A stretch of DNA of 64,000 nucleotides from an uncultured bacterium (GCA_938074205.1 CALJES010000012.1:278840-342839); one strand, 5' to 3'; numbered from the stretch's first letter, positions 21,732-35,064 are shown. Notes: generated by a model not told the origin, from the letters alone. A program made the numbers and translations.

Positions 21732-22211
21732 GTGGAAGGGCACAGCTTGATGACCGACGATACTCAAAACTTGGTCCGCGTCGTATTAGACACAAATGTG
21801 TTTGTTGCTGCTTATTGGGCACCGTCAAGTGCGTCAGCTCAACTTATCCAAGCTTGTAGAAAGGGACTAGCTCGCGCCCAGTACTCCACTGAGGTTCGAG
21901 AAGAAGTCGAACGCGTGTTGCGGGCCATCAAAGCTAGACCCCAATTCGTTTATTCACTTGAAGCATTCTGGTCTGCTGCTGAGAAAGTCCGTGCAGTCAG
22001 CGTAGGTTCTGTCCGGGTGCCTGACCCCGACGACCAAAAGTTCTTGGAAGCCGCGGTTGGCGGGGCGAGTGACCTTTTGGTAACAAACGACAACCACCTA
22101 CTAAGCTTGAAATCCGTAGGCCGAACCGAAATAGTGACGCCGTCGACAGCGATGAAGATTGTTTGCCAAATATATCGCGTAGGACCGAGCCATCCTATTG
22201 GTCATAGTTGA
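21732..22211 (+). CDS. PIN-domain protein (putative toxin-type PIN nuclease, TIGR00305-like).
   Basis: Motifs 'VVLDTNVFVAA' and 'PDPDDQKFLEAAVGGASDLLVTNDNHLL...IVTPS' are present. Confidence 0.55.
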   Translation: MEGHSLMTDDTQNLVRVVLDTNVFVAAYWAPSSASAQLIQACRKGLARAQYSTEVREEVERVLRAIKARPQFVYSLEAFWSAAEKVRAVSVGSVRVPDPDDQKFLEAAVGGASDLLVTNDNHLLSLKSVGRTEIVTPSTAMKIVCQIYRVGPSHPIGHS

Positions 22212-22266
22212 ATAGACGTTGAGAGATAATTAAACTTGTATAAATTATGGAACTGGCTCTACCCGA

Positions 22267-25200
22267 ATGTTCAAACGGAATAAAGTGGCGAAGAAAATGG
22301 GTGCTCCAGCATTTTCCAATCAAGAAACGACAAGACGATTCATAGATAACTGTATCAGCGCATTGGAAGACGAAATCCAAGCCGCTGAACACACCGGAGG
22401 TTCCAAAAGGACAGTCGCACTAGCTAACGGACGCTTTCAAAGAACGATTGATCGAACTCATATATACGTGTTTGTAGCATCTGATGGCATGCCGCCGTCC
22501 TACGAAGATGCTCCTGTGCAAATATTGGTTTCAGGACAGGAGATAGACGGATCTGTTGTAGGCATAGAGGAGTTTGAGGTGATAATTGCTCTCGAAGAAT
22601 ACGTGGGAATGTACGTAGCTACAGCAGAACTCGTCGTCGACCTAACGTTCATACTTGAGAAGCTCAGAGAGCTTTTGACTGAGCGGGCCTCTGCTTTAGA
22701 GGTCCACGATGTAACCCTGAAAGTCTTTGGATTTGGTCAGCCACGTATCTCTTTAAGTTCTGCAAAACACCTTTCTGCTGACGAATGTTACATGAACGAA
22801 GCCCAGAAGCACGCATTGGGCAAGTGTCTAGGCAGCGACTTCGTAATGGTTTGGGGACCTCCCGGTACAGGAAAAACGCACGTTTTGGCGAGGGTTCTCG
22901 GCGAGCAGATTTTGCAAGGACAGTCCATTGCTCTACTCTCGAACACTAACATCGCTGTAGACCAAGCGCTTGAGCAGCTACTTAAACTCTGTGAAAATAA
23001 CGAAAGACTCAAGTGTTTGAAAGACGAAGGAAAGATAATACGCTTGGGCACACCTCAATTGGAAAGCGTCTTATCCATTACTCTCGATAGGATGGCTGAA
23101 CGCATAGCGTCCCAATTGAAAGACGAACTAACAAGGCTAAAGCGGCGCCGGGATAGACGAACTAAACGCTTGGAACAAGTGAGGTCGAGGATTAAAAGGC
23201 TTAGGGAATTGCTGGAGTTACATCGTAGACTCAATGAAGTAGTGGACTCGGAAAAACGCATTGCCCACGAGCTGAAAAAAGTGTGCCACCAATACCACGT
23301 GCTTGCAGACGAGCTTCTTGCGCTAAATTTGCGACTGTCCGTCATCCAAAAAAGGCGCCGCCTGCTACGCCTGATATACAGGTCCAAACAGCGCCGCTTG
23401 GAGCAGCTCGTGACTCAAAAAGAAGAGGGTTGCAGAAAAATAAACGAGAATATGCGTAAGTTAACCGAAAAAGTCTTGGCTCACCGCGCTGAGGTCGAAA
23501 AACTTCGCCAACGGATGGCCACCTTGACAAATGGCGTAGTCGATCCAGCGAAATGGGAAACCTGTCTGGCTCGGCTTACAAGTCTTGAGACGAGGCTACA
23601 AAATGAGATGGCCATCTTCGCAGCGAGAATCCACGAGCTTGAAATCGCTCTCCAGACAGTTGAAGCAAGAATTCTTAACGAGGCTCTCCTTGTAGGGTGT
23701 ACCTGCGCTAAGAGCACCCTCGACGTTAATGTCAGTAGCCGTAGGTTTTCAACGGTGGCTGTAGATGAATCCAGTATGGTCTCCCTTCCGCAAACACTCT
23801 GGTGTACGAACTTGGCTAATAAAAGGTTCCTTTGTTTTGGGGACTTTCGCCAGTTGCCACCGATCACCTTGATCAAACCAGATTCTGGGCAGGAGTCATA
23901 TGAGATCATGCATAGTAGCATATTCGAAAGACATCGGTTGGGCGAGAGTTTACAGGACGCCCTTGGGGATCCGCGGGTAGCTTTGCTAAATGAACAATAT
24001 CGTATGAATCCAGAAATATGTGAGCTCGTGAACAAATGGATGTATGGGGGCCGCTTGATTACGGTACCTGGGACCGGCTGCGGAGCTATGCTGTCCCAGG
24101 ATCCACCTCTTGCACTGGTTGACACGTCGTTATTTGGTGCATGGAGCGACAAGAACGCGGATTTTTCGTGGTACAATTGGCACCACGCATTTGTGGTGCT
24201 GGAACTCGTGCGAGAATTGAGAAATGATTCAGGTGCCCAGGCAGATCAAGGTGCGCTAGTGCTGATACTTACGCCGTACCGCGCTCAGGTTCGCCTAATT
24301 CGAGCATTGCTGGAAGAAGCAGACCTTCAAGAGAACGCGAGAGTATCAACCGTCTGGGGTTGCCAAGGAACAGAAGCAAGCGTTGTCATATTTGATACCG
24401 TGTGTGCCCCTCCGTACAGCAAACCGGGACGATGGTTTCTGCATGAACCGGGGCCAGCGGACGGTGCCAGGTTAATTAACGTCGCCATAACAAGAGCCAA
24501 GGACAAGTTGTATATAGTGGGGCATAGGCAGCACCTTGTGCGGAGCTGCCCATCAACCGCGTTCATAAGGAAAATTCTGGATTGCTTAATCGCAAATGAC
24601 CATATTATCGATTCACGGGAAATCGCGAAAAACTTGATACCGGAAGAACCAGCCGACGATGGTGGCTTTCCTATTGGCGCATTTGGGACTGCCTCGTTCA
24701 AGTTGTTCGACCAAGAGACGTTTCTAGAGGCGTTTATAAGCGATCTTTGTCAACTTCCGCCAGGATCGCGGATAACCATCTTCCGGCCGTTCTTAAGTGG
24801 GGAATCCTTTGCACGTTGCAAGTCGCATTTTTGCACATTGCTCAAAAATGGCTGCAGCATCGAGCTATTTACACGAGATCGCTCTGCGCAGAACAGGGGC
24901 AGGCCACTCGACGCTGTCGATTCTATGATTGATGAGCTGGAAAGATTGGGGGCAAAGGTTGGGATAGATTCGTATCTGCGGGGCCAAAGATTCGAGCACC
25001 ACAAGTTGGCTTTTCTCGAGTACCCGCAGGAATCAGACCGAAGAAGCGAACCTGTTATCTGGATCGACAGCAAAAGGATTCTTGGTCACCGCTCTGGTTG
25101 GGAGACTATGCTGCGAATTCAGTCGCGCAATGTGTACAGCGTCTTTGCGAGTATCATCGGTTTAGAAGACCGGCGCAAGCACGTACCAGTACACGTTTTG

Positions 25201-25521
25201 ATAAGCAAACTGGAGAACACACTTCAGCGACAGCTGCAAGCAATTTGTCCTGTTCACAAATTACACATGAAGCTTCGTTTCTCGGTTAGAAGTAGTAAAA
25301 AGTCATTTTTTATGTGTTGTCCTACGTGGAGCAAAAGCAGATGTGACCAGAAGATGAATGTGTCGGTTGAAGAGCTTAACAAAGCTCTGGAGTTCATTCG
25401 GGCGACGTGCTTGGAACCCGGCTGCGACGCTCCGTTGGATGCAAGACGAGGTCGTGAAGGCATATACATAAGGTGCTCCGAAGGACACTATGTCCCCCTT
25501 ATTTCATACTTCCGTAGATAA
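22267..25521 (+). CDS. Upf1-like (DNA2/NAM7) SF1 helicase with a roughly 250-aa coiled-coil insertion and a roughly 330-aa C-terminal region with an HxK motif and a Cys/His cluster.
   Basis: Helicase motifs are I 'GPPGTGKT', II 'VAVDESSMV', III 'GDFRQLPPI', IV 'LNEQYRMNPEI', V 'ILTPYRAQV' and 'VWGCQGTEASVVIFD', and VI 'INVAITRAKDKLYIVG'. A heptad-rich Arg/Leu/Glu segment sits between motifs I and II. The C-terminal region contains 'FEHHKLAFLEY' and 'CCPTWSKSRC...CLEPGC...CSEGH'. Confidence 0.7.
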   Translation: MFKRNKVAKKMGAPAFSNQETTRRFIDNCISALEDEIQAAEHTGGSKRTVALANGRFQRTIDRTHIYVFVASDGMPPSYEDAPVQILVSGQEIDGSVVGIEEFEVIIALEEYVGMYVATAELVVDLTFILEKLRELLTERASALEVHDVTLKVFGFGQPRISLSSAKHLSADECYMNEAQKHALGKCLGSDFVMVWGPPGTGKTHVLARVLGEQILQGQSIALLSNTNIAVDQALEQLLKLCENNERLKCLKDEGKIIRLGTPQLESVLSITLDRMAERIASQLKDELTRLKRRRDRRTKRLEQVRSRIKRLRELLELHRRLNEVVDSEKRIAHELKKVCHQYHVLADELLALNLRLSVIQKRRRLLRLIYRSKQRRLEQLVTQKEEGCRKINENMRKLTEKVLAHRAEVEKLRQRMATLTNGVVDPAKWETCLARLTSLETRLQNEMAIFAARIHELEIALQTVEARILNEALLVGCTCAKSTLDVNVSSRRFSTVAVDESSMVSLPQTLWCTNLANKRFLCFGDFRQLPPITLIKPDSGQESYEIMHSSIFERHRLGESLQDALGDPRVALLNEQYRMNPEICELVNKWMYGGRLITVPGTGCGAMLSQDPPLALVDTSLFGAWSDKNADFSWYNWHHAFVVLELVRELRNDSGAQADQGALVLILTPYRAQVRLIRALLEEADLQENARVSTVWGCQGTEASVVIFDTVCAPPYSKPGRWFLHEPGPADGARLINVAITRAKDKLYIVGHRQHLVRSCPSTAFIRKILDCLIANDHIIDSREIAKNLIPEEPADDGGFPIGAFGTASFKLFDQETFLEAFISDLCQLPPGSRITIFRPFLSGESFARCKSHFCTLLKNGCSIELFTRDRSAQNRGRPLDAVDSMIDELERLGAKVGIDSYLRGQRFEHHKLAFLEYPQESDRRSEPVIWIDSKRILGHRSGWETMLRIQSRNVYSVFASIIGLEDRRKHVPVHVLISKLENTLQRQLQAICPVHKLHMKLRFSVRSSKKSFFMCCPTWSKSRCDQKMNVSVEELNKALEFIRATCLEPGCDAPLDARRGREGIYIRCSEGHYVPLISYFRR

Positions 25522-27526: not shown

Positions 27527-28099
27527 TCAGCTGCGTCGCTCTCTTACGGGCCCAAGGGATATGTCTATGTCATCAGTCAGAAGCTCAGAACCACTCTGTC
27601 GCGCCTGGATCTCACCGCGCCTAGAATCCTCAACTGTCAGCAGGATAGAGCGTGTTCCTAAAGGAAACGATTTTTGATTTCGGCGCGCCCAAGCCGCAGC
27701 ATCTTTGTTTACGGGGCTTGCCAAGTTGTAGCTTTTGTACTGGATCATATCGGCGATGTGAACAATGACATCTACCAAAGTAACACCAGGAGACCAGTAA
27801 TCGCCTATGCAGACGTAATCTCCTATGTTCGGGTGCCATATCGGGGTGCGCATCGTGCATCTTGGACCCTGCCTCGGGTAACCGGTCGACAGTACTATAT
27901 CCACAACGTGCTTCTCTGACACCACAGCTCTACTCGATGCCTCATCCCAAACAAGTCCCGTCAGCCTGTAAGTAACTCGGTAATACCAAGGCGGGTTACC
28001 CTGAATCGGTTCTACACACACAAACTCGTTGCCGGAAAGTTCCGATAAGATCTTTTCGTATTCGCGACGCAGACGCCTTGTCCGAATTGTCTCGCTCAC
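27527..28099 (-). CDS. Prokaryotic ubiquitin-conjugating enzyme (E2/UBC fold) homolog.
   Basis: The UBC signature is 'RLRREYEKI...YPRQGPRCTMRTPIWHPNIGDYVCIGDYWSPGVTL'. This gives the HPN motif, a candidate catalytic Cys 7 residues later, and WSP. Confidence 0.75.
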   Translation of the reverse strand: MSETIRTRRLRREYEKILSELSGNEFVCVEPIQGNPPWYYRVTYRLTGLVWDEASSRAVVSEKHVVDIVLSTGYPRQGPRCTMRTPIWHPNIGDYVCIGDYWSPGVTLVDVIVHIADMIQYKSYNLASPVNKDAAAWARRNQKSFPLGTRSILLTVEDSRRGEIQARQSGSELLTDDIDISLGPVRERRS

Positions 28100-28114
28100 G
28101 ATACCGCACCTGCC

Positions 28115-29536
28115 TCACTTTGGCTTTCCCAGACTTGCGCAGATACGCTTGACCTTCCGCCGGTCGCTTTCAGACAGCGCATGGAAAAGTCTGTCATACG
28201 GCTCTTCGCGACAGATCACTCCGTAAGCTATCTCCCGACTTCGTTCACCGCGTAGCCACCGAACAGCTTTCTCATGCCAAGCGTTCGAACCATGCTCGTC
28301 ATGAACAGCTACGCTTAGCTTCAGCGACCGCACAATGTCCCTTACGCGGCAGGCTCTCTCGATCCGCTTCTCACGGCTTGCAGCCGCCCGCTTGTAGACT
28401 TGGAGGGCTTGTTTAACGTAGTCCGGCGAGGCTACAATAATATCAGGTCGACGACTATTGGATGTGAATGAGCTTTCTATGTCTTTCACCAGCGACGGTT
28501 CCTGCGCCCGCGGTAGCTGCCGGGCGAGACGCGCCGCTGCAGCTAACTGCAAGTTGATTCTATCGAGCTTTTCACCCTCTTCGTTGCCAATTTCGCTATC
28601 GGACAGCGCCGCGCTTACACGCTGAAACTCCAAAAACGCTTGTCGGTTTTCCGGGTTAGCTGAAAGTTCGAGCCTAAGCAACCTCTCACCGCCTGTAAGA
28701 TCACCTATCGAAAGCATTTCAATAGCGGTTTCCAGGTACGTAGTAGGATGTGTTGCCTGCCTCCCGCGGAAAACGACAAGCCACAAAGCGATCTGCGAAG
28801 CCGCCAATAGTATAATTAGTGACCAGATAATCCCAGGAACTCTACCGACGTTAAGGCGATTATTCATTTGTGCTGGTCCTCTAGCCGTGACCGTGGAATG
28901 ATCTGACGTTGCAGATAGCTCCCTCATACATTCCCGCAGTGCTTCTTCATTGCTGCGTGGGGCGAATACATAGAATCCGGAAATGCGTACAAGAGACTCC
29001 TGCGACCACTCAAAAATAGCCCATTCGCCCAACTTGGAGTCGACAACCATCGCTATCTGGTAGGAATCAGCGAAGTAGTGCTGGTGAATGAATTCGTCTT
29101 CCTTGGAAAGAAACGCTCCTAGCCCTGGGTGGCTGTGATACCAACCAACGATTCTCTCGCGTGAGTACCGCTGGGCAAGCTGCGCGTGCACCTGCTCCCA
29201 AGCCTCGTGGGTGAAAGTGAGCGATATACCGGTGCTTTCGGCCATCTCTGCTCGGATAATGTCGTTGACCTGAATAAAGTAACCCCTGCCAAACTTGCAG
29301 AACTCGCCTACCAACACTCCGCCGAGCTCACGCTCCGGATCTGCGAGAAGATGTTCCCTAATTGCCCGGACAGCTTGTTCACTGATGAAAACGGGATACA
29401 AATCATCGGCCGGCTGACCGCACGCGCAAACTCTCATCGCCCTGTTTTCAAGTGGGCTCTTTCTTTTGACGGCAGATAAGCGAGTTGACCTGCCTAGCTC
29501 CAGTTGTATGTCGTCGTTCTCTTCTTCGCGCTGCAT
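28115..29536 (-). CDS. JAB/JAMM (MPN+) metallo-isopeptidase with a TM helix and a roughly 220-aa C-terminal extension.
   Basis: JAMM motifs are 'ELGGVLVGE', 'HSHP' and 'SKED'. The predicted TM is 'VPGIIWSLIILLAASQIALWLVVF'. Confidence 0.75.
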   Translation of the reverse strand: MQREEENDDIQLELGRSTRLSAVKRKSPLENRAMRVCACGQPADDLYPVFISEQAVRAIREHLLADPERELGGVLVGEFCKFGRGYFIQVNDIIRAEMAESTGISLTFTHEAWEQVHAQLAQRYSRERIVGWYHSHPGLGAFLSKEDEFIHQHYFADSYQIAMVVDSKLGEWAIFEWSQESLVRISGFYVFAPRSNEEALRECMRELSATSDHSTVTARGPAQMNNRLNVGRVPGIIWSLIILLAASQIALWLVVFRGRQATHPTTYLETAIEMLSIGDLTGGERLLRLELSANPENRQAFLEFQRVSAALSDSEIGNEEGEKLDRINLQLAAAARLARQLPRAQEPSLVKDIESSFTSNSRRPDIIVASPDYVKQALQVYKRAAASREKRIERACRVRDIVRSLKLSVAVHDEHGSNAWHEKAVRWLRGERSREIAYGVICREEPYDRLFHALSESDRRKVKRICASLGKPK

Positions 29537-29554
29537 ACTCTCGAATGTGTCGAT

Positions 29555-30061
29555 TCAGATCACAAGCCGGATCAAGAAGACGATCCCGCTTGAGCTGATA
29601 CTGAAGAGCACAACCGCTGGTCCAAAGCAGTTTTCGAAAAAGCGGTTTTCCCTAGCTGTGAAACGACAGTGCACACAAATGATCTGATTCTGCTTCACCG
29701 GTCTTCCGCACTTTATGCACCGCAGAGGCTGATCACTTTCGTCTGTCAGGTCTGTAGGCGCAATGACAATACGGCCCTCTGCAGTAGGCGAAATGCGATC
29801 AGAGATCTGCCGGTTCCATATTGCCCAACCGTCGCAGCCGTATACAGAGCAGCGGCCGTTGGACTTCCAGCACTCAGCATGATGCATTACGCCGCACTTG
29901 GGACAGCGTATCGCTTCTTCTTTCGATTCGATCGGACTTAGACAGTATGGGCAGTTCAGGCTTTCGTTTGTTGATCTCACCTTTCCACTCGATCGAACGC
30001 TTTGGGTAGTTGGTCTATGGTATCGAGGCTGCCGGTAGGAACCGCCGCCACTATCAGCCAA
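29555..30061 (-). CDS. Membrane-anchored C4HC3 RING-variant-like zinc-finger protein (paralog 2), with a second CxxC...CxxC ribbon and a C-terminal TM.
   Basis: Cys/His spacing is 'CPYC..(13)..CPKCGVMHHAECWKSNGRCSVYGC', then 'CIKCGRPVKQNQIICVHC', then the hydrophobic tail 'AVVLFSISSSGIVFLIRLVI'. The 5' end overlaps the upstream paralog by 85 nt, so the true start may be internal or non-ATG. Confidence 0.5.
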   Translation of the reverse strand: MADSGGGSYRQPRYHRPTTQSVRSSGKVRSTNESLNCPYCLSPIESKEEAIRCPKCGVMHHAECWKSNGRCSVYGCDGWAIWNRQISDRISPTAEGRIVIAPTDLTDESDQPLRCIKCGRPVKQNQIICVHCRFTARENRFFENCFGPAVVLFSISSSGIVFLIRLVI

Positions 30062-30459
30062 GCTAACAGAACTGCTGAGACGAGCAACATAATCAGTATA
30101 GGTCCCACGTTCTTTGCGTCCTGGTGTTCTAGGATAGATGTGGGCCTACACGTATTGCAGTAGAGTTCCCCTGGAGGAACCTGCTTCCCGCAGTGCACAC
30201 ACGGGTTGGAAACGCTCATCGCTTTTCTGTTACTTGCAGATTCGACTGCCTCACGCGTTAGAAGGAGTCTACTCCTTGCCGGTGGTGTATCGAAGTTGAT
30301 TTCGATTATCCGTCTTGCTTTGGGACATTCCTTTGCACAGCAGCCGCGGTGCTCTTCCCAACAATCGAAGTGATACACCGAGCCGCATGCGTCGCAGGTC
30401 ACAGTTTTTTCCTGCAGGGCAATTTCGCTCATACAATAGCGACAACTTCTGTCTGCCAC
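29977..30459 (-). CDS. Membrane-anchored C4HC3 RING-variant-like zinc-finger protein (paralog 1).
   Basis: Cys/His spacing is 'CRYC..(12)..CDACGSVYHFDCWEEHRGCCAKEC', then 'CVHCGKQVPPGELYCNTC', then the TM 'ILIMLLVSAVLLAWLIVAAV'. Confidence 0.55.
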   Translation of the reverse strand: MADRSCRYCMSEIALQEKTVTCDACGSVYHFDCWEEHRGCCAKECPKARRIIEINFDTPPARSRLLLTREAVESASNRKAMSVSNPCVHCGKQVPPGELYCNTCRPTSILEHQDAKNVGPILIMLLVSAVLLAWLIVAAVPTGSLDTIDQLPKAFDRVER

Positions 30460-30509
30460 TTCTGCTCACGTGTTAAAGTCGTTTGCTACGCGCCGCGCAA
30501 GCTATTCTC

Positions 30510-31721
30510 TTACGAACCCGGCAGTACGGATTTGGCATCTGATGATATCTCAATCTGCACGCAGCCTCTTTGCGATACCGCAGGAAGAATCTCCAATTGA
30601 CCAAAACCAAGCTCTTTTAGTGTGATATCTTCGTAGGGCGCGCCGCGCATATACTCGACATCTACTTCCGGCAGTCGCTCTGCGCCGCAGTCGGGACATC
30701 TTGCCTCTTCAGCGCGGATGCTATGTGCCAATCGGTAGAACGGTTGCGTGGAGCCACACCGATTGCACTTAAGTGATTTTACCATCTCAGAAGGTAGACC
30801 AATCACAGGGTTTGCACCCACGTAACGTGTTGCGAGATCCGCAACCTCAGCCAGCGTTGCTGATTCGCTGTTGAGCTGGGTTTCTACGATGTTTTCGAAC
30901 AACTCGTGGCTCATGCAGTCTTCGTTTCTCACGTAGTCAATAATGAAGCAGTCGTAGGTTGTGGCGTCAAAGTAGAAAGCCTTCCCGACCAGGGTAGGGC
31001 TCAGCCTCTGTCCTGGCGTTTGCAGGCAGGAGCGCGAGTGCAAGAGCTTTACGGCTTCGTGTACCTGGATGCCGGCTATTATGGATGCCATTGTAGGCGT
31101 CGTAGGAGTCCTGTCTTGAATATGAGCTTGAGCTGCCAGGATACCGCACGACTCACGCCACGCCATAATTTTTCTGTCCTGTTCGCCGAGCGTACACTCG
31201 TAGCAAGGGGTATCTGGGGGCACGAAGCTGCGCACAATACCGCGAGTGTCATCGACCGCTCCATCTACCCAGGGTGTGCCAACCTTCCAGCAAGCTCGGT
31301 TGATTGCAAGCCGCGCCTCACGGTTATCCAGTCCGCCGATCACGACATCCACGCGCCTGAAAATGCCAAGACCGATGTCCCTAGTTACATCAGCCTCCAG
31401 GCCGATGAACCGGCAGTCAGGATTCAGCGCCTCAGCTGCGCTCGCCGCTACTTGGGCTTTGGGCTTGCCTTCGTCTTGGGCTCTGAATAATGGACTTCGC
31501 GAAAGGTTGGAGAGCTCAACACGATCGAAGTCGACTATGATCACCGTCCCTGCGCCCAATAGTGCAAGGTTCTTTATTATCTCATTGCCAAGCGCACCGG
31601 CTCCAACGACCATGATTGATGCGGCGCGTAGGACGTCTTGGTTCCACCAGGAGATCAAGCGTAAACGCCAATATCGATCTTCTCCGATGTCAATCGGGAA
31701 GTGGGATTTCTCAGCAGACAC
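30510..31721 (-). CDS. E1-like adenylating enzyme (ThiF/MoeB/UBA family) with a C-terminal zinc-ribbon extension.
   Basis: The nucleotide-binding motif is 'VVGAGALGNEIIKNLALLGAGTVIIVDFDRVELSNLSRS'. CxxC is 'CYEC', and a later ribbon reads 'CNRCG...CPDCG'. The gene overlaps the Ubl gene by 11 nt. Confidence 0.8.
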   Translation of the reverse strand: MSAEKSHFPIDIGEDRYWRLRLISWWNQDVLRAASIMVVGAGALGNEIIKNLALLGAGTVIIVDFDRVELSNLSRSPLFRAQDEGKPKAQVAASAAEALNPDCRFIGLEADVTRDIGLGIFRRVDVVIGGLDNREARLAINRACWKVGTPWVDGAVDDTRGIVRSFVPPDTPCYECTLGEQDRKIMAWRESCGILAAQAHIQDRTPTTPTMASIIAGIQVHEAVKLLHSRSCLQTPGQRLSPTLVGKAFYFDATTYDCFIIDYVRNEDCMSHELFENIVETQLNSESATLAEVADLATRYVGANPVIGLPSEMVKSLKCNRCGSTQPFYRLAHSIRAEEARCPDCGAERLPEVDVEYMRGAPYEDITLKELGFGQLEILPAVSQRGCVQIEISSDAKSVLPGS

Positions 31722-31998
31722 AAAAGCACCCGCCTGCGGTGATCTCAGGTATTAGTCTGAGAACGTCCCCGTCTAGGACGTTGCATTCTGAAAGCGTGAG
31801 ATTGTCCAGCAAATGCCTGCCGGTTCCTTTGTGCAGGAGTTTGTAAGAAATCGGCGCGCCTGCGGTGTTGACCACTGGTAGGTAAAGAACCTCGACTAGT
31901 TTGTCAATAATTCTACTGATAGGCACGTCGTCTGGGAGCGTCGCATCTTGTTCTTTGCTTCCCGTTACGTCTATGATTGTGACGTTAACCTTACCCAT
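31711..31998 (-). CDS. Ubiquitin-like beta-grasp protein (95 aa) ending in ...AGG followed by a CFCVC tail.
   Basis: The beta-grasp pattern is 'KVNVTIIDVTGSKEQDATLPDDVPISRIIDKLVEVL...GDVLRLIPEITAGG'. A penultimate diglycine precedes a 5-residue Cys-rich extension. It is the first gene of the operon and overlaps E1. Confidence 0.6.
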   Translation of the reverse strand: MGKVNVTIIDVTGSKEQDATLPDDVPISRIIDKLVEVLYLPVVNTAGAPISYKLLHKGTGRHLLDNLTLSECNVLDGDVLRLIPEITAGGCFCVC

Positions 31999-32248: not shown

Positions 32249-34537
32249 ATGGAGAAACAGTCAATGCTCAAGGGAGTAGCACGCGCGGATGGGAGTGATT
32301 TCCCTGAAGACAGATACACTGCTATAGTGGCGCTATCGCATCTTTCTGAGAGGTTGGCTTCCGTAGAGTCGAAAAAGGCTTTCGTCATAGCTGCAGAAAC
32401 GGCCGCCACCTTGCTCCGAATGTCTTCTGTGCTCATATTTACAAAGGAAACCGACGGCCGGCTTGAGCTCCAGGCAGTGTATGCTGATTCGGCATCTGAA
32501 GAACTGGTCAGCGCATCGGGCAAAATAGCTCAGGAAGCGCTGAGTGTCAGCTCGCCGCTTTTGATTCCCAACACCGCGGCAACATCTTCTACTGCCGCGA
32601 AAATTATCCAGCGCAACGGGGTAGCGTCCTTGATATGTGTGCCAATGAGAATCGGCGGAACGGCATTGGGGGCGATCGTATGCCTTTCCGAGCAGGTCCG
32701 CAGTTTTTCACCGAGAGACATCGAACTCTTACACGTGATCGCATCTCATGCTGCCATAGCGGCGATGCGAACGAGAGCAGGCACCGAACGGCAGACACTA
32801 CCCAGCAGCGATGATCTTCTGGCGCTTGCGGACAGAAAGATTCGAGAGCTCTCGCTTCTCAACCAAATAAGCGAGGCAATGAACTCCACGTTGGAGCTCG
32901 ATGCGGTGCTCGACATCGCTTTGGAAGAATGCCTCGCGGCGATAGACGCCGACGCCGGCTCGCTGATGTTGATAAACGAGGATACGGGCAAGCTTGAGAT
33001 CGCGGCGTCGCGTGGTCTGCCGGAGGAACTGGTCGAGTCTACCTCGCAGGAGATCGGGCAGAGTATTGCCGGCTGGGTGGCTGAGCACGGTGAGAGCGTT
33101 CTCGTTACGGACGCACGCAATGACGACCGTTTTGAGATGCCATTCTATCGCGATGCCATCACTTCGTCCGCCTCGGTGCCGCTGAAGTCCAGAAACGGCT
33201 GCATTGGCGTGCTCAACGTTAACACTACGCGGCCTGATCGGATCTTCGACGAACGCGACCTCCAGTTTCTACAGACTATAGCAAACCAAATGGCTGCTGC
33301 TATCCAGAACGCCAGACTCTACACGCGCGTTCGCCGACGAACCCAACAACTCGACGGCTTGCTGAGGGTTTCGCGCAGCGTGACCTCCACGCTGAGCTTG
33401 GAAGATCGCTTGAAGCTCTTGAGCGAGGAAATGTGTAAGCTGCTGGAGTTTGATGTCTGCGTGATATTCCTAGTGGACGAAATTACAGGCAGGCTGCGGC
33501 ACGGAGTCGGCAGAGGGCTGAGAACGCGCTACAGATTCACCTACTATAACTTAGCAAATCCTCTGGCCCAGAAGGTTCTCAAAACGCGCAGAACGGTGTA
33601 TTTGAAGGATATCAATTCTTCGCCCACTGCGGCAAGCGATGTGTCGAAATCGGAGCGATTGACGTGTGCATTGGGACTGCCGCTGAGGAGCAATGGGAGG
33701 ATAGTAGCTGTTGCAACGCTTTTCGCTCGGGCTCCGCAAGAGCTACCACCGTCCAGACGTGCAGCATTGAAAATGCTAGCCGACTTGGCGGGCGTTGCCA
33801 TACACAACGCTTTGGCATATCAAAATAAGTATAGAGTGGCTTCATTGGTTCAAAGCAGGTTGGTACCCGCCGACGCCCCGACGGTTGACGGGCTCGAGAT
33901 AGGGCATAAGTTCTTCTCGGTGCGCGAGGTGGGCGGCGATTACTACGATTTCATTGTGCTTAATGATCGGCAGATCGGGATTGTAGTCGCCGATGTTTCG
34001 GGAAGCGATGTAGAAGCTGCCGAACACACCGCCATGAGCAGGCATGTTATACGTGCCTACGCACGGGAGTTTCCGCGTCCCGCTGATGTGCTCTATAAGA
34101 CGAACAACGTTATTTGCGAACTGACAAGTGCCGAGACGTTCGTAAGTGCATTCTACTGTGTAATCGACTTGGGTCGCGAGTGCTTCACGCACGCCAACGC
34201 CGGCTGTGAACCCCCGCTTCTCTACTGCGCAGCTCACGGAAACGTTCGGGACCTGCACACAAGCGGTGTTCTGCTCGGAGTAGCTGCAGGAATGCAATAC
34301 GCGGAGCAAGAGGTGTCCTTCAGATCTAAAGACGTTCTTGTCGCGTTCACCGACGGTGTAACTGAAGCATCCTGTGGTAATTCTCGTTTTGGAACGGACG
34401 CAGTGAAGCGCGTATTGTCGGCTAACGCTCATCTGGGTGCCCAGGCGATCGCGGACAAGCTCTTCGACGCTATTATGGAGTTTACCAACGGCAAGGTTTC
34501 CGATGACGTAGCGGTAGTCGTGGCAAAACGAGTGTAG
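32249..34537 (+). CDS. Multi-GAF-domain PP2C-type serine phosphatase (SpoIIE/RsbU family).
   Basis: The 762-aa product has 3 or more GAF-like segments. The C-terminal PP2C/SpoIIE domain carries 'GGDYYDF', 'VADVSG' and 'FTDGVTEA'. Confidence 0.75.
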   Translation: MEKQSMLKGVARADGSDFPEDRYTAIVALSHLSERLASVESKKAFVIAAETAATLLRMSSVLIFTKETDGRLELQAVYADSASEELVSASGKIAQEALSVSSPLLIPNTAATSSTAAKIIQRNGVASLICVPMRIGGTALGAIVCLSEQVRSFSPRDIELLHVIASHAAIAAMRTRAGTERQTLPSSDDLLALADRKIRELSLLNQISEAMNSTLELDAVLDIALEECLAAIDADAGSLMLINEDTGKLEIAASRGLPEELVESTSQEIGQSIAGWVAEHGESVLVTDARNDDRFEMPFYRDAITSSASVPLKSRNGCIGVLNVNTTRPDRIFDERDLQFLQTIANQMAAAIQNARLYTRVRRRTQQLDGLLRVSRSVTSTLSLEDRLKLLSEEMCKLLEFDVCVIFLVDEITGRLRHGVGRGLRTRYRFTYYNLANPLAQKVLKTRRTVYLKDINSSPTAASDVSKSERLTCALGLPLRSNGRIVAVATLFARAPQELPPSRRAALKMLADLAGVAIHNALAYQNKYRVASLVQSRLVPADAPTVDGLEIGHKFFSVREVGGDYYDFIVLNDRQIGIVVADVSGSDVEAAEHTAMSRHVIRAYAREFPRPADVLYKTNNVICELTSAETFVSAFYCVIDLGRECFTHANAGCEPPLLYCAAHGNVRDLHTSGVLLGVAAGMQYAEQEVSFRSKDVLVAFTDGVTEASCGNSRFGTDAVKRVLSANAHLGAQAIADKLFDAIMEFTNGKVSDDVAVVVAKRV

Positions 34538-34659
34538 TATTGAGGCTGCCACTCGCTTGGCAGTGAGTGTTACCCATAGAGCAGCGCGCAATACCTGCCA
34601 AAAATTAATAATGGATGTAAGGGGACGAGCACGTCCCTTAGTTTGAGGAGTGCAGTAGG

Positions 34660-35064
34660 TTGAGGCAAGGTGAGAGTATTCATTTGGAAATTCCCAGCTC
34701 ACCGGAGTACGTTGCTGTTGTCAGACGCGCTATTGAGGGAATCGCACAAAGAATGCATTTCAACGCAGCTCAGATTGAAGACTTGAAGGTAGCTGTAGGC
34801 GAAGCCTGCGCAAACGCGATTCTGCATGGGTGTCCGCGGTCTGAAGAAAACAATGTAGAAGTGCATTGTGAAGTACGCGCTGACGGTTTGCTTGTCGAAG
34901 TGAGAAACACCGTGGAAGGTCAATGCCGTCCGCACATACCAGCAAAGCCCGAGTTAAACCGCGAAGGAGGGCTGGGGCTCTATATCATTAACCAGCTTAT
35001 GGATGAAGTGCAGTTCACCTGGACCAACAGGACCGCAGTGCTACGTATGCTCAAGCGCCTGTGA
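34660..35064 (+). CDS. Anti-sigma regulatory factor/serine-protein kinase (RsbW/SpoIIAB-like, GHKL ATPase).
   Basis: The 134-aa HATPase_c domain has 'VGEACANAILHG' (N-box) and 'GGLGLYII' (G-box). Confidence 0.7.
   Translation: MRQGESIHLEIPSSPEYVAVVRRAIEGIAQRMHFNAAQIEDLKVAVGEACANAILHGCPRSEENNVEVHCEVRADGLLVEVRNTVEGQCRPHIPAKPELNREGGLGLYIINQLMDEVQFTWTNRTAVLRMLKRL

What the first reader, a model, noticed from the sequence alone, without database searches (positions are those of the whole stretch)
24530..25521. Unassigned C-terminal region of the helicase: HxK-containing module plus terminal Cys/His cluster
After helicase motif VI there are about 330 residues. They include 'FEHHKLAFLEY...VIWIDSKRIL'; the H-x-K reminded me of phospholipase-D (HKD) nucleases, but the aspartate position is occupied by glutamate and no GSxN follows, so this is only a loose resemblance. 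A terminal 'CCPTWSKSRC...CLEPGC...C..GH' cluster follows, reminiscent of topoisomerase/GRF-type zinc ribbons. A nuclease or nucleic-acid-binding effector domain fused to the motor would fit an immunity enzyme, but the HKD resemblance is loose (Glu replaces the Asp and no GSxN follows), so it is a hypothesis only.
Basis: inference. Interest (0 to 1): 0.55.

Follow-up and report, generated by a model that had tools for sequence, protein, structure and literature searches.

The report
Divergent PLD nuclease tail on helicase
The unassigned tail of this 1084-residue helicase is a genuine but highly diverged phospholipase-D-type nuclease domain followed by two topoisomerase-I-type zinc ribbons, the layout of the known single-gene 'Mokosh type II' anti-phage enzymes, except that this copy alone has lost two residues of the catalytic pocket.

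Summary
ORF 22267-25521 (+) encodes a 1084-aa Upf1-like SF1 helicase. Its last ~330 residues contain HHK (911-913), E918, DSKR (934-937) and the Cys/His cluster. A profile built only from distant full-length relatives that carry Pfam PLDc_2 + Zn_ribbon_Top1 aligns to residues 812-1072 at 79 bits. An AlphaFold model (pLDDT 89.6) hits NucT, SauUSI, Zucchini, Nuc and BfiI. The family profile hits Zucchini and the E. coli topoisomerase I zinc ribbons. The tail is therefore a linker, a single-HKD PLD domain (808-965), a helix and two zinc ribbons (C994/H997/C1018/C1026; C1048/C1053/C1070/H1074). This is a Mokosh-type-II-like helicase-nuclease. H911, K913, S935 and E946 are invariant in all relatives. 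The close clade (about 9 sequences, one in an Armatimonadota MAG) has lost the motif Asp and gained a 9-12-residue insertion. This protein alone replaces GS[LM]N with DSKR and shows a modest PLD-specific excess of changes at conserved sites. Whether the nuclease still works is open; I lean towards impaired or altered. A new variant of a known kind, of modest interest.

The parts
22267..25521 (+). Whole gene: 1084-aa helicase-PLD-zinc-ribbon fusion protein (the stop codon is included)
   Evidence: ORF listing. An identical protein is on record from independent assemblies. The full-length AlphaFold model has pLDDT 86.7 and pTM 0.77.
22267..22776 (+). N-terminal domain (res 1-170): helix 18-44 plus beta-barrel 47-125. 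It is conserved in the family (Y67, F69, D81 invariant). Function unknown.
   Evidence: Alignment A1; full-length model.
22792..24528 (+). Upf1-like SF1B helicase core (res 176-754): Walker A GPPGTGKT 197-204, DESS 500-503, motif VI 739-746
   Evidence: Pfam AAA_11 at 1e-28 and AAA_12 at 9e-33. NCBIfam IGHMBP2-family at 9e-54. PDB profile hits to UPF1, DNA2 and IGHMBP2. Foldseek hits to Senataxin, IGHMBP2, Dna2 and UPF1.
23083..23655 (+). Three-helix coiled-coil insertion of about 190 residues inside RecA1 (res 273-463). The sequence is poorly conserved (16-22% identity) but the insertion is present throughout the family.
   Evidence: Full-length model helices 273-362, 368-421 and 427-463. Per-region identity. 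Coiled-coil PDB hits.
24529..24687 (+). Post-helicase linker (res 755-807)
   Evidence: Models. The PADLOC MkoA match runs to residue 773.
24688..25161 (+). Single-HKD PLD-superfamily domain (res 808-965)
   Evidence: AlphaFold model of residues 800-1084, pLDDT 89.6. Foldseek hits: NucT 6ehi at 2e-5, SauUSI 7clg, Zucchini 4gel/4ggj, Nuc 1byr, BfiI 2c1l. Canonical-clade HMM at 79 bits. PLDc_2 is the top Pfam hit for all five orthologs' C-termini.
24997..25020 (+). HxK(x)4E motif: H911-H912-K913-LAFL-E918. His and Lys are invariant in all relatives. Glu occupies the Asp position.
   Evidence: The family profile aligns it column-for-column with the MHHKFAIVD of Zucchini.
25021..25053 (+). Clade-specific insertion of 9-12 residues between the HxK strand and the GSxN strand (res 919-929)
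   Evidence: Alignments A1 and A3. It is present in P0002-P0006, P0121-P0123 and the L003 ortholog, and absent in the canonical clade.
25066..25077 (+). Degenerate GSxN: D934-S935-K936-R937. Gly->Asp and Asn->Arg are unique to this protein; Ser is retained.
   Evidence: The columns align to the GSLN of Zucchini.
25102..25104 (+). E946, an invariant Glu in the E-x-M-x-R motif. It is the inferred counterpart of the Glu that positions the nucleophilic His in Nuc and PLD3/4.
   Evidence: Invariant in A1, A3 and A5. Its role is inferred from PMC10690185.
25162..25236 (+). Long connecting helix (res 966-990)
   Evidence: Models.
25246..25362 (+). Zinc ribbon 1 (res 994-1032). Ligands are C994, H997, C1018 and C1026. 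Canonical relatives have CxxC...C...C.
   Evidence: The ligand columns are invariant in the clade. Strands and pLDDT above 90 in the models. The family profile hits the Topo I zinc ribbons.
25408..25488 (+). Zinc ribbon 2 (res 1048-1074). Ligands are C1048, C1053, C1070 and H1074. It is Top1-type.
   Evidence: Pfam Zn_ribbon_Top1 scores E=0.17 on the query and 2e-13 on canonical relative P0009. PDB hits to 4rul and 9gda.

Best explanation
Residues 755-1084 are the effector module of a single-gene helicase-nuclease of the Mokosh type II kind. The module is a linker, one PLD-superfamily (Nuc/Zucchini-type, single-HKD) domain at 808-965, a connecting helix, and two topoisomerase-I-type zinc ribbons at 994-1032 and 1048-1074.

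Inferred mechanism for the family: the Upf1-like SF1B motor translocates on single-stranded RNA or DNA using ATP. The zinc ribbons hold the single strand, as they do in topoisomerase I. The PLD domain cuts the strand through a metal-independent phospho-histidine mechanism. A single HKD domain provides only half an active site, so cutting should need two PLD domains to pair, which makes dimerisation a likely control point.

The domain identity is shown. The mechanism is inferred from the families involved.

Specific to this copy: the nucleophile His911, Lys913, Ser935 and Glu946 are kept. The motif Asp is Glu, which is tolerated in the active enzymes PLD3 and PLD4. The Gly and the phosphate-binding Asn of GSxN are replaced by Asp934 and Arg937. 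I judge it somewhat more likely than not (about 55%) that nuclease activity here is weakened, lost or changed in specificity, while helicase and nucleic-acid binding are intact.
For: - Independent homology test: an HMM built from 12 canonical relatives only (the query's clade excluded) aligns to query residues 812-1072 across the PLD and both ribbons at 79 bits, E 1e-26 for one target.
- Those relatives have the same length and about 96% coverage, and pass Pfam PLDc_2 (43-48 bits) and Zn_ribbon_Top1 (33-50 bits).
- PLDc_2 is the best Pfam hit for the C-termini of all five close orthologs (E 2e-5 to 4e-3).
- The AlphaFold model of residues 800-1084 has pLDDT 89.6. Its significant Foldseek PDB hits are PLD-superfamily folds, led by NucT, SauUSI, Zucchini, Nuc and PLD1, with BfiI just below (E 5e-3). 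The viral library gives the same fold.
- The family profile hits Zucchini/MitoPLD (2e-8 and 4e-6), NucT, and the E. coli Topo I C-terminal zinc ribbons (1e-8 and 2e-7). The HxK, D and GSxN columns align one-to-one.
- H911, K913, S935 and E946 are invariant in all 35+ relatives examined.
- All eight zinc ligands are invariant in the clade.
- PADLOC: MkoA 2e-61; MkoC 4e-32, with the match running past the helicase to residue 899. Canonical relatives match MkoC through the PLD, and also match MkoB and DrmC.
- Type II Mokosh is defined as one gene with an N-terminal Upf1-like helicase and a C-terminal PLD, both needed for defence.
- No neighbouring gene is conserved across six loci, so this is a single-gene unit.
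- For impairment in this copy: DSKR in place of GS[LM]N is unique among all relatives found in 5.8 billion clusters and 1.84 billion representatives.
- The query departs at 7/29 deeply conserved PLD columns, against 6/88 helicase columns (p=0.017) and 3/113 for its orthologs' PLD domains (p=6e-4).
- The motif Asn hydrogen-bonds the phosphate of the phospho-histidine intermediate in PLD3/4.
Against: - The query's C-terminus passes no curated threshold on its own: no Pfam, NCBIfam or PADLOC hit, and Zn_ribbon_Top1 at 12 bits against a cut-off of 32. The assignment is transitive and structure-based.
- The structure is a prediction, and I could not inspect the coordinates of the pocket.
- The MkoC HMM match is partial (profile 770-1074 of 1136) and weaker than the MkoA match. 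The family differs from MkoC in its N-terminal region, and the MkoC model ends just after the PLD match, so it appears to lack the zinc ribbons.
- The immune role has no direct support. The neighbourhoods of relatives are mostly housekeeping genes (ftsZ/ftsA, dnaB and ribosomal genes, mutS, cytochromes). The adjacent ubiquitin-like operon gives only weak hits to defence models.
- Against impairment: the four most critical residues are retained. The ORF, the helicase motifs and the zinc ligands are intact. Arg could in principle still contact phosphate. Tajima relative-rate tests with single outgroups were not significant. The raw 20/60 count was inflated by tree topology, and only 7 of those changes are confidently on the query's branch.
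- E. coli Mokosh II is reported as monomeric, which does not fit a simple constitutive-dimer model.
Confidence: 0.72

Rival explanations
1. The module is the same, but this copy is a fully competent nuclease. H911, K913, S935 and E946 carry the chemistry. Glu918 does the structural job of the Asp, and Arg937 replaces the Asn as the phosphate ligand. The DSKR change is then neutral, or adaptive (for example a change in substrate preference, or escape from a phage inhibitor).
For: - The nucleophile His, the Lys, the Ser and the His-positioning Glu are all retained.
- Glu at the Asp position occurs in the active enzymes PLD3 and PLD4, where the acidic residue is structural.
- The whole close clade lacks the Asp yet keeps H, K, GSxN and E strictly, so the Asp is dispensable here.
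- The ORF is intact, and the helicase and zinc ribbons show no excess divergence, as expected if the whole enzyme is still in use.
- The relative-rate tests were not significant.
Against: - Gly934 and Asn937 are invariant in every other relative, including all eight or more members of the close clade.
- The Asn contacts the phosphate of the covalent intermediate in solved PLD enzymes.
- Five further deeply conserved PLD positions changed on this branch (S840R, R856C, R861N, P872R, M910E). That is a rate of 7/29, and the motif residues are hit at about the same rate as the rest of the domain.
- No closer relative exists to show that D934 and R937 are themselves conserved.
Confidence: 0.4
2. The family is not an immune system. 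It is a housekeeping nucleic-acid-processing enzyme, a Dna2- or Upf1-like helicase-nuclease acting on cellular RNA or on replication or repair intermediates. The resemblance to Mokosh reflects shared domains only.
For: - The genes around relatives are mostly housekeeping: ftsZ/ftsA, mutS, dnaB, ssb and ribosomal genes, and cytochromes.
- The MkoC HMM match is partial and modest (109 bits).
- The closest solved motors (UPF1, IGHMBP2, Senataxin, Dna2) are all cellular RNA or DNA surveillance enzymes.
Against: - The distribution is extremely sparse and patchy. The clade occurs in 1 of about 186,000 species representatives, and the module gave 23 hits in 1.84 billion representatives. That is typical of accessory or defence genes and not of housekeeping ones.
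- Its location differs in every genome.
- The best defence-library matches are MkoA and MkoC.
- The defining domain order of type II Mokosh is met.
- GC content dips slightly over the gene (0.48 against about 0.52).
Confidence: 0.3
3. The HxK and Cys/His patterns are chance motifs in a non-PLD, non-zinc-binding C-terminal extension.
For: - H-x-K is expected about 0.56 times by chance in this region.
- No curated library recognises the region when it is searched alone.
Against: - A profile alignment at 79 bits over about 260 residues, using a profile that excludes the query's clade.
- A confident model whose significant structural neighbours are PLD-superfamily folds.
- The motif columns are invariant across all relatives.
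- All eight zinc-ligand columns are conserved.
Confidence: 0.02

Closest known systems
Mokosh type II (MkoC), the single-gene anti-phage helicase-PLD nuclease (Millman et al. 2022, bioRxiv 10.1101/2022.05.11.491447)
   Same: It is one gene with an Upf1-like (COG1112) SF1 helicase followed by a C-terminal PLD-family domain. The PADLOC MkoA and MkoC models are the best defence-library matches. No partner gene is conserved.
   Different: - The MkoC model is matched only in part (profile 770-1074 of 1136, 109 bits).
- The N-terminal region differs: here it is a beta-barrel domain plus a coiled-coil insertion of about 190 residues in RecA1.
- Two C-terminal zinc ribbons are added. The MkoC model ends just after the PLD match.
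- In this clade the HKD Asp is lost and 9-12 residues are inserted. In this copy GSxN is DSKR.
- No defence phenotype has been tested.
Single-HKD PLD nucleases: Nuc (1byr), NucT (6ehi), Zucchini/MitoPLD (4gel, 4ggj), BfiI (2c1l)
   Same: The predicted fold is the same (Foldseek E 2e-5 to 5e-3, target-normalised TM 0.5-0.65). The HxK, Ser and downstream Glu align. With one HKD per domain, an active site should need two domains (PMC5714352).
   Different: Sequence identity is only 12-15%. The domain is fused to a helicase and zinc ribbons rather than free-standing. Asp is replaced by Glu, Gly by Asp and Asn by Arg. There is an extra loop after the HxK strand.
C-terminal zinc-ribbon domains of bacterial topoisomerase I (E. 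coli TopA, 4rul; Pfam PF01396)
   Same: The family profile aligns to Topo I residues about 598-794 (E 1e-8 and 2e-7). The ribbons occur in tandem with two-knuckle ligand geometry. In Topo I these domains bind single-stranded DNA (from my own knowledge of the 4RUL work, not checked here).
   Different: In this clade one Cys per ribbon is replaced by His (CHCC and CCCH). The query scores only 12 bits against PF01396. There are two ribbons, not the series of zinc-ribbon and ribbon-like domains I recall for Topo I (not checked here).
SauUSI (7clg), an ATP-dependent type IV restriction enzyme with a PLD nuclease and a helicase
   Same: It is a PLD nuclease domain fused to a helicase-family ATPase in a defence enzyme, and it is the second-best structural hit for the PLD domain.
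   Different: From my own knowledge, not checked here: the domain order is reversed (PLD at the N-terminus), the motor is SF2, it has a modified-DNA target-recognition domain and it has no zinc ribbons.
Non-catalytic PLD folds: FAM83 / BJ-TSA-9 (5qhm, 4urj), TrmBL2 C-domain (5bqt), MITD1 (2ymb)
   Same: They also appear among the structural neighbours. They show that a PLD fold can persist as a binding or dimerisation module after the catalytic motif decays, which is a precedent for the 'impaired' reading.
   Different: To my knowledge (not checked here) those proteins have lost the catalytic residues. Here His911 and Lys913 are intact.

Membership tests
PLD superfamily (single-HKD nuclease type; Pfam PLDc_2 PF13091) | alpha/beta PLD fold | tested here: met
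   The AlphaFold model has pLDDT 89.6. The significant Foldseek hits are PLD-superfamily folds in the PDB and in the viral library. This is a prediction, not an experimental structure.
PLD superfamily (single-HKD nuclease type; Pfam PLDc_2 PF13091) | Score above the curated Pfam threshold (27 bits) | tested here: not met
   The query C-terminus gives no PLDc_2 hit at E<=1. The close orthologs score 17-25 bits, below threshold; canonical relatives score 43-48 bits. Homology is established transitively: 79 bits to the canonical-clade profile.
PLD superfamily (single-HKD nuclease type; Pfam PLDc_2 PF13091) | H-x-K (nucleophile His and Lys) | tested here: met
   H911 and K913 are invariant in all relatives and align to the HHK of Zucchini.
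PLD superfamily (single-HKD nuclease type; Pfam PLDc_2 PF13091) | Asp four residues after the Lys (HxK(x)4D) | tested here: not met
   The query has Glu918; the other members of the close clade have R, E or N. HxK(x)4E does occur in the active enzymes PLD3 and PLD4, where the acidic residue is structural.
PLD superfamily (single-HKD nuclease type; Pfam PLDc_2 PF13091) | G-S-x-N following the HKD | tested here: not met
   The query has D934-S935-K936-R937, so only the Ser is kept. Gly and Asn are present in every other relative.
PLD superfamily (single-HKD nuclease type; Pfam PLDc_2 PF13091) | Acidic residue that positions the nucleophilic His | tested here: inconclusive
   E946 is invariant and lies nine residues after the Asn column. 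Its equivalence to Glu122 of Nuc or E227/E242 of PLD3/4 is inferred, because I could not inspect the coordinates.
PLD superfamily (single-HKD nuclease type; Pfam PLDc_2 PF13091) | Pairing of two HKD domains to form the active site; metal-independent phosphodiesterase activity | not testable with these tools
   There is only one PLD domain per chain and no second PLD gene in the window. Oligomeric state and activity need experiment.
Mokosh type II (MkoC) | Single gene with an N-terminal Upf1-like (COG1112) helicase | tested here: met
   AAA_11 and AAA_12. IGHMBP2-family at 9e-54. UPF1 at 5e-62 with the family profile. No conserved neighbouring gene.
Mokosh type II (MkoC) | C-terminal PLD nuclease with an intact active site (required for defence) | tested here: inconclusive
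   The PLD fold and the HxK are present, but the Asp and the Gly and Asn of GSxN are replaced.
Mokosh type II (MkoC) | Full-length match to the MkoC profile | tested here: inconclusive
   PDLC03924 scores E 4e-32 and 109 bits, with residues 571-899 matching profile positions 770-1074 of 1136. MkoA scores higher at 2e-61. PADLOC's system-level cut-offs were not available.
Mokosh type II (MkoC) | Anti-phage protection that depends on the ATPase and PLD sites | not testable with these tools
   This needs phage challenge assays.
Topoisomerase-I-type zinc ribbon (Pfam PF01396) | Four zinc ligands in two knuckles on a beta-ribbon | tested here: met
   The ligand sets are C994/H997/C1018/C1026 and C1048/C1053/C1070/H1074. 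All are invariant in the clade. The strands are modelled at pLDDT above 90.
Topoisomerase-I-type zinc ribbon (Pfam PF01396) | Score above the curated Pfam threshold (32 bits) | tested here: not met
   The query scores 12.1 bits, E 0.17. Canonical relatives score 33-50 bits. The family profile hits Topo I 4rul and 9gda at 1e-8 and 2e-7.
Topoisomerase-I-type zinc ribbon (Pfam PF01396) | Zinc binding and single-strand binding | not testable with these tools
   This needs metal analysis and binding assays.
   None of these families appears at E<=1 in the Pfam scan of the C-terminal region, and none is among the 25 best Pfam families listed for the whole protein. They are also absent for the orthologs' C-termini.

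The most novel reading that the evidence does not exclude
This lineage may be a rewired form of the HKD site. The Asp was lost clade-wide and a 9-12-residue loop inserted, and in this copy Gly->Asp and Asn->Arg followed. Two versions are possible. In the first, the protein still cuts nucleic acid with a previously undescribed pocket (His/Lys/Ser/Arg/Glu). In the second, it is a naturally nuclease-dead helicase 'sensor' that has handed cleavage to another protein. The obvious candidate is the orphan PIN_3 RNase encoded 55 nt upstream on the same strand, a neighbour seen at none of the five relatives' loci whose upstream flank is on the contig.
Probability: 0.12. Interest if true: 0.5.

Novelty: new variant of a known kind. 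Interest (0 to 1): 0.3.

Why it matters
This gives a concrete annotation to a 330-residue region that every standard library leaves blank. It also places a rare clade, probably from Armatimonadota, within the helicase-PLD (Mokosh type II-like) enzymes. The Mokosh mechanism is still unknown, and its parts parallel the animal piRNA factors MOV10L1 and Zucchini.

The family described here adds two Topo-I-type zinc ribbons, a long coiled-coil insertion and an N-terminal barrel to the Mokosh plan. These may help explain how such enzymes hold their substrate.

The clade is also a natural experiment on which residues of the HKD signature are dispensable. The Asp is lost in the whole clade, and the Gly and Asn are lost in this one copy. 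Comparing this protein with a GSMN-bearing ortholog would be a cheap test.

The practical lesson for genome scans is that a sub-threshold motif in a helicase tail can be resolved by a transitive profile search through full-length relatives.

Tried and rejected
- **C-terminus searched alone.** Pfam, NCBIfam and PADLOC gave no hit except Zn_ribbon_Top1 at E=0.17. The word-indexed search of 5.8 billion clusters gave nothing. The full-length search was what made progress possible.
Rejected.
- **Genome scan with the mixed-clade alignment A5:** I repeated it with the close clade only and got one locus.
- **Raw count of query-specific changes** (20/60 PLD columns, p=3e-7). I withdrew this as the headline figure because it is confounded if the query is the deepest branch of its clade. 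After polarisation with outgroups, 7 changes are on the query's branch, 2 on the stem of the other five, and 11 are ambiguous. The defensible figures are 7/29 against 6/88 (p=0.017) and against 3/113 (p=6e-4). Tajima relative-rate tests with single outgroups were not significant.
- **Frameshift or sequencing error as the cause of DSKR.** Rejected. W932 and L939-G940-H941 flank it in frame with the same spacing as the orthologs, and several nucleotide changes are needed.
- **A second PLD gene in the window** that could complete the site in trans: none found.
- **PIN_3 as a conserved partner.** It is not seen at any of the five relatives' loci whose upstream flank is on the contig. I keep it only as a speculation.
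- **Defence-island context.** The neighbouring E1 and JAB genes give only weak PADLOC hits, and the E2 and Ubl genes give none. Relatives sit among housekeeping genes. I do not use context as support.
- **Promoter and terminator scan:** counts at chance level. No tRNA and no Rfam family in the window.
- **Whole-protein fold search:** only Upf1-class helicases, and no solved structure with the whole architecture.

Full report
**1. The observation**

The window holds a 1084-codon ORF at 22267..25521 on the + strand. Walker A (GPPGTGKT) is at residues 197-204 and motif VI (VAITRAKD) at 739-746, which leaves 330 residues after residue 754.

The finding's start coordinate is one base out of frame; codon 755 starts at 24529. 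An H-x-K tripeptide on its own means little. About 0.56 are expected by chance in this region, and two occur.

**2. Standard libraries leave the tail blank**

Pfam assigns residues 176-754 to AAA_11 and AAA_12, the Upf1-like SF1 helicases. It gives nothing for residues 755-1084 except Zn_ribbon_Top1 at E=0.17. NCBIfam and PADLOC also give nothing for the tail searched alone, and a word-indexed search of 5.8 billion protein clusters found no relative.

There was one hint. PADLOC's MkoC model, which represents the Mokosh type II helicase-nuclease fusion, matched the whole protein beyond the helicase, out to residue 899.

**3. Relatives resolve it**

A full-length search found three tiers:
- the identical protein, from NCBI, ENA and Logan assemblies;
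- five full-length orthologs at 38-43% identity (P0002-P0006) with no precomputed PLD call;
- a second tier of the same length (about 1030-1050 aa, 25-29% identity, about 96% coverage) that carries Pfam PLDc_2 and Zn_ribbon_Top1.

In the alignment the canonical tier reads MHEKIAIID...LWHGSLNILSH...E.M.R exactly where the query reads EHHKLAFLEY...VIWIDSKRILGH...ETMLR.

As an independent test I built an HMM from the 12 canonical sequences only, leaving out the query and its close clade. It aligns to query residues 812-1072, across the PLD domain and both zinc ribbons, at 79 bits.

PLDc_2 is also the top Pfam hit for the C-termini of all five close orthologs. Their E-values run from 2e-5 to 4e-3, below the curated threshold. 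Canonical relatives score 1e-11 to 1e-12.

**4. Structure**

An AlphaFold model of residues 800-1084, built with 31 aligned sequences, has mean pLDDT 89.6 and pTM 0.82. Against the PDB, its 19 matches at E<=1e-3 are PLD-superfamily folds:
- NucT (6ehi, 2e-5), SauUSI (7clg), PLD1, Zucchini (4gel, 4ggj) and Nuc (1byr), with BfiI (2c1l) just below at 5e-3;
- the non-catalytic PLD folds FAM83/BJ-TSA-9 and TrmBL2, with MITD1 lower in the list.

The viral structure library gives the same fold.

The family profile hits Zucchini/MitoPLD (2e-8 and 4e-6), NucT, and the C-terminal zinc ribbons of E. coli topoisomerase I (1e-8 and 2e-7). The alignment puts the family's H-x-K, D and G-S-x-N on Zucchini's MHHKFAIVD...TGSLN column for column. 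The query's D934 and R937 therefore sit at the Gly and Asn of the catalytic GSxN.

**5. Anatomy of the whole protein**

This comes from the full-length model (pLDDT 86.7, pTM 0.77).

| Residues | Element |
|---|---|
| 18-44, 47-125 | N-terminal helix and beta-barrel |
| 176-270 and 475-555 | RecA1 |
| 273-463 | Three-helix coiled-coil insertion that interrupts RecA1 |
| 560-754 | RecA2 |
| 755-807 | Linker |
| 808-965 | PLD domain |
| 966-990 | Long helix |
| 994-1032 | Zinc ribbon 1 (C994, H997, C1018, C1026) |
| 1034-1043 | Short helix |
| 1048-1074 | Zinc ribbon 2 (C1048, C1053, C1070, H1074) |

All eight ligand columns are invariant in the close clade. Canonical relatives have Cys where this clade has H997, and their last ligand is a Cys further downstream in place of H1074.

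C1017 is not a conserved ligand.

The motor's structural neighbours are Senataxin, IGHMBP2, Dna2, UPF1, Sen1 and ZNFX1. No solved structure shares the whole architecture.

**6. How unusual the tail is**

An exhaustive HMMER scan of 1.84 billion representatives found only 23 proteins at E<=1e-3 and 6 at E<=1e-10. Among about 186,000 species-representative genomes, one carries the close clade's module. It is an Armatimonadota MAG at 42% identity.

*Shared by the whole close clade* (P0002-P0006, P0121-P0123 and the MAG ortholog):
- the HKD Asp is replaced by R, E or N;
- 9-12 residues are inserted right after it;
- H, K, G-S-M-N and the downstream Glu are strictly kept.

*Unique to the query:* G934D and N937R. 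No other relative in either database has them, and there is no relative between 43% and 100% identity. So it cannot be tested whether D934 and R937 are themselves under selection.

**7. Is the PLD domain of this copy decaying?**

My first count looked striking. The query departs at 20 of the 60 PLD columns where its five orthologs are identical, against 0-4 of 40-44 for each ortholog. That count is confounded if the query is the deepest branch of the clade.

After polarising with 12 outgroups, 7 of the 20 changes fall on the query's branch (S840R, R856C, R861N, P872R, M910E, G934D, N937R). Two fall on the stem of the other five and 11 are ambiguous.

I then restricted the test to columns where the other five and at least half of the outgroups agree. 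There the query departs at:
- 7/29 PLD columns against 6/88 helicase columns (p=0.017);
- 7/29 against 3/113 for the orthologs' PLD domains (p=6e-4);
- in the helicase, 6/88 against 12/422 for the orthologs (p=0.10).

Tajima relative-rate tests with single outgroups point the same way (ratio 1.5-1.8 in the PLD, 1.05-1.6 in the helicase) but are not individually significant.

My conclusion is that there is a modest, PLD-specific excess of changes at deeply conserved sites. The motif residues are hit at about the same rate as the rest of the domain.

**8. What the literature says about these residues**

- The family signature is HxK(x)4D(x)6GSxN. The His is the nucleophile, all PLD members are dimers, and the active site lies at the dimer interface. 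NucT H124N is inactive (PMC5714352).
- In PLD3 and PLD4 the motif is HxK(x)4D/E. The acidic residue only stabilises the fold through backbone hydrogen bonds. The motif Asn residues (N216, N430) hydrogen-bond the phosphate of the phospho-histidine intermediate, and a Glu hydrogen-bonds the nucleophilic His (PMC10690185).
- So Glu918 is not disqualifying, and loss of the Asp across the clade is plausible for an active enzyme. Asn937->Arg, however, removes a direct phosphate ligand. Whether Arg can substitute for it is unknown.

**9. System-level comparison**

[quoted passage not shown] Mutations in the ATP-binding site and in the PLD active site each abolish defence (bioRxiv 10.1101/2022.05.11.491447). 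E. coli Mokosh II behaves as a monomer of about 132 kDa and protected only against one ssDNA phage in one screen (bioRxiv 10.1101/2025.07.10.664194). Mokosh has been linked to the piRNA factors MOV10L1 and PLD6/Zucchini (bioRxiv 10.1101/2022.12.12.520048).

The query meets the domain-order definition, and MkoA and MkoC are its best defence-library hits. Canonical relatives match MkoC through the PLD, and also match MkoB and the DISARM PLD protein DrmC.

The MkoC match is partial, though. The family also has its own N-terminal domain, a coiled-coil insertion and two zinc ribbons.

No neighbouring gene is conserved across six loci, so it is a single-gene unit. Those neighbourhoods are mostly housekeeping genes. 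The immune role therefore rests on architecture and on the sparse, patchy distribution, not on genomic context.

**10. Mechanism (inferred)**

- An SF1B motor moves along single-stranded RNA or DNA.
- The tandem zinc ribbons grip the strand.
- The PLD domain cleaves it through a covalent phospho-histidine, without metal.
- With one HKD domain per chain, and no second PLD gene in the window, a complete pocket needs two PLD domains. Pairing of protomers on a substrate is therefore a natural switch.

For this copy I put about 55% on a weakened, lost or altered nuclease and about 40% on full competence. The remainder covers other outcomes.

**11. Verdict**

Its cautiously stated interpretation is supported at the level of homology and architecture. 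Catalysis and the immune role remain untested.

This is a new variant of a known kind: a divergent, rare subfamily of helicase-PLD enzymes, with a uniquely degenerate copy here. Interest is modest (0.3).

Noticed in passing
window 27527-31998, minus strand: A ubiquitin-like conjugation operon: an E2-like UQ_con protein (27527-28099, with the HPN motif), a JAB/Prok-JAB deubiquitinase-like protein (28115-29536), an unknown 151-aa protein (29977-30432), a ThiF-type E1 (30510-31721) and a YukD-type ubiquitin-like protein (31711-31998). The gene content resembles Bil-type or CBASS-associated E1/E2/JAB modules. However, the PADLOC matches are weak (E1-E2 6e-17, BilD 5e-10, JAB 1e-7), and the E2 and Ubl proteins give none.
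   Followed up: partly
window 21732-22211, plus strand: An orphan PIN_3-domain protein (159 aa) whose acidic catalytic residues look intact by eye. It ends 55 nt upstream of the helicase start codon on the same strand, and no antitoxin gene is visible. The five relatives' loci whose upstream flank is on the contig show no PIN neighbour. It could be co-transcribed with the helicase. A link to the degenerate PLD pocket is speculation only.
   Followed up: partly
window 23083-23655 (residues 273-463): A three-helix coiled-coil insertion of about 190 residues sits inside RecA1 of the helicase. It is present throughout the family, but its sequence is barely conserved (16-22% identity even among close orthologs). 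It draws SMC, tropomyosin and other coiled-coil hits in the PDB. From my own recollection (not measured here) it is much longer than the stalk of Upf1 or IGHMBP2. Its function is unknown.
   Followed up: partly
window 22267-22776 (residues 1-170): A family-specific N-terminal domain made of a long helix and a beta-barrel. Y67, F69 and D81 are invariant. No library assigns it. The true start codon may be Met11 (22297), because the orthologs begin around query residue 29.
   Followed up: no
window 22001-24000: GC content dips to 0.48 over the 5' two-thirds of the helicase gene, against 0.50-0.545 for the other 2-kb bins. This is mild and fits either horizontal acquisition or the Lys/Glu-rich coiled coil.
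   Followed up: no
window 32264-35064 (L001 19998-22798): A GAF-GAF-GAF-SpoIIE (PP2C) phosphatase is followed by a small HATPase_c_2 protein. This looks like a partner-switching, anti-sigma-type regulatory pair next to the ubiquitin-like operon.
   Followed up: no
L002 14772-15863 (contig carrying ortholog P0003): A CAP12-PCTIR_TIR-domain protein lies about 8 kb from the ortholog. It is the only clearly defence-associated neighbour seen at any relative's locus.
   Followed up: no
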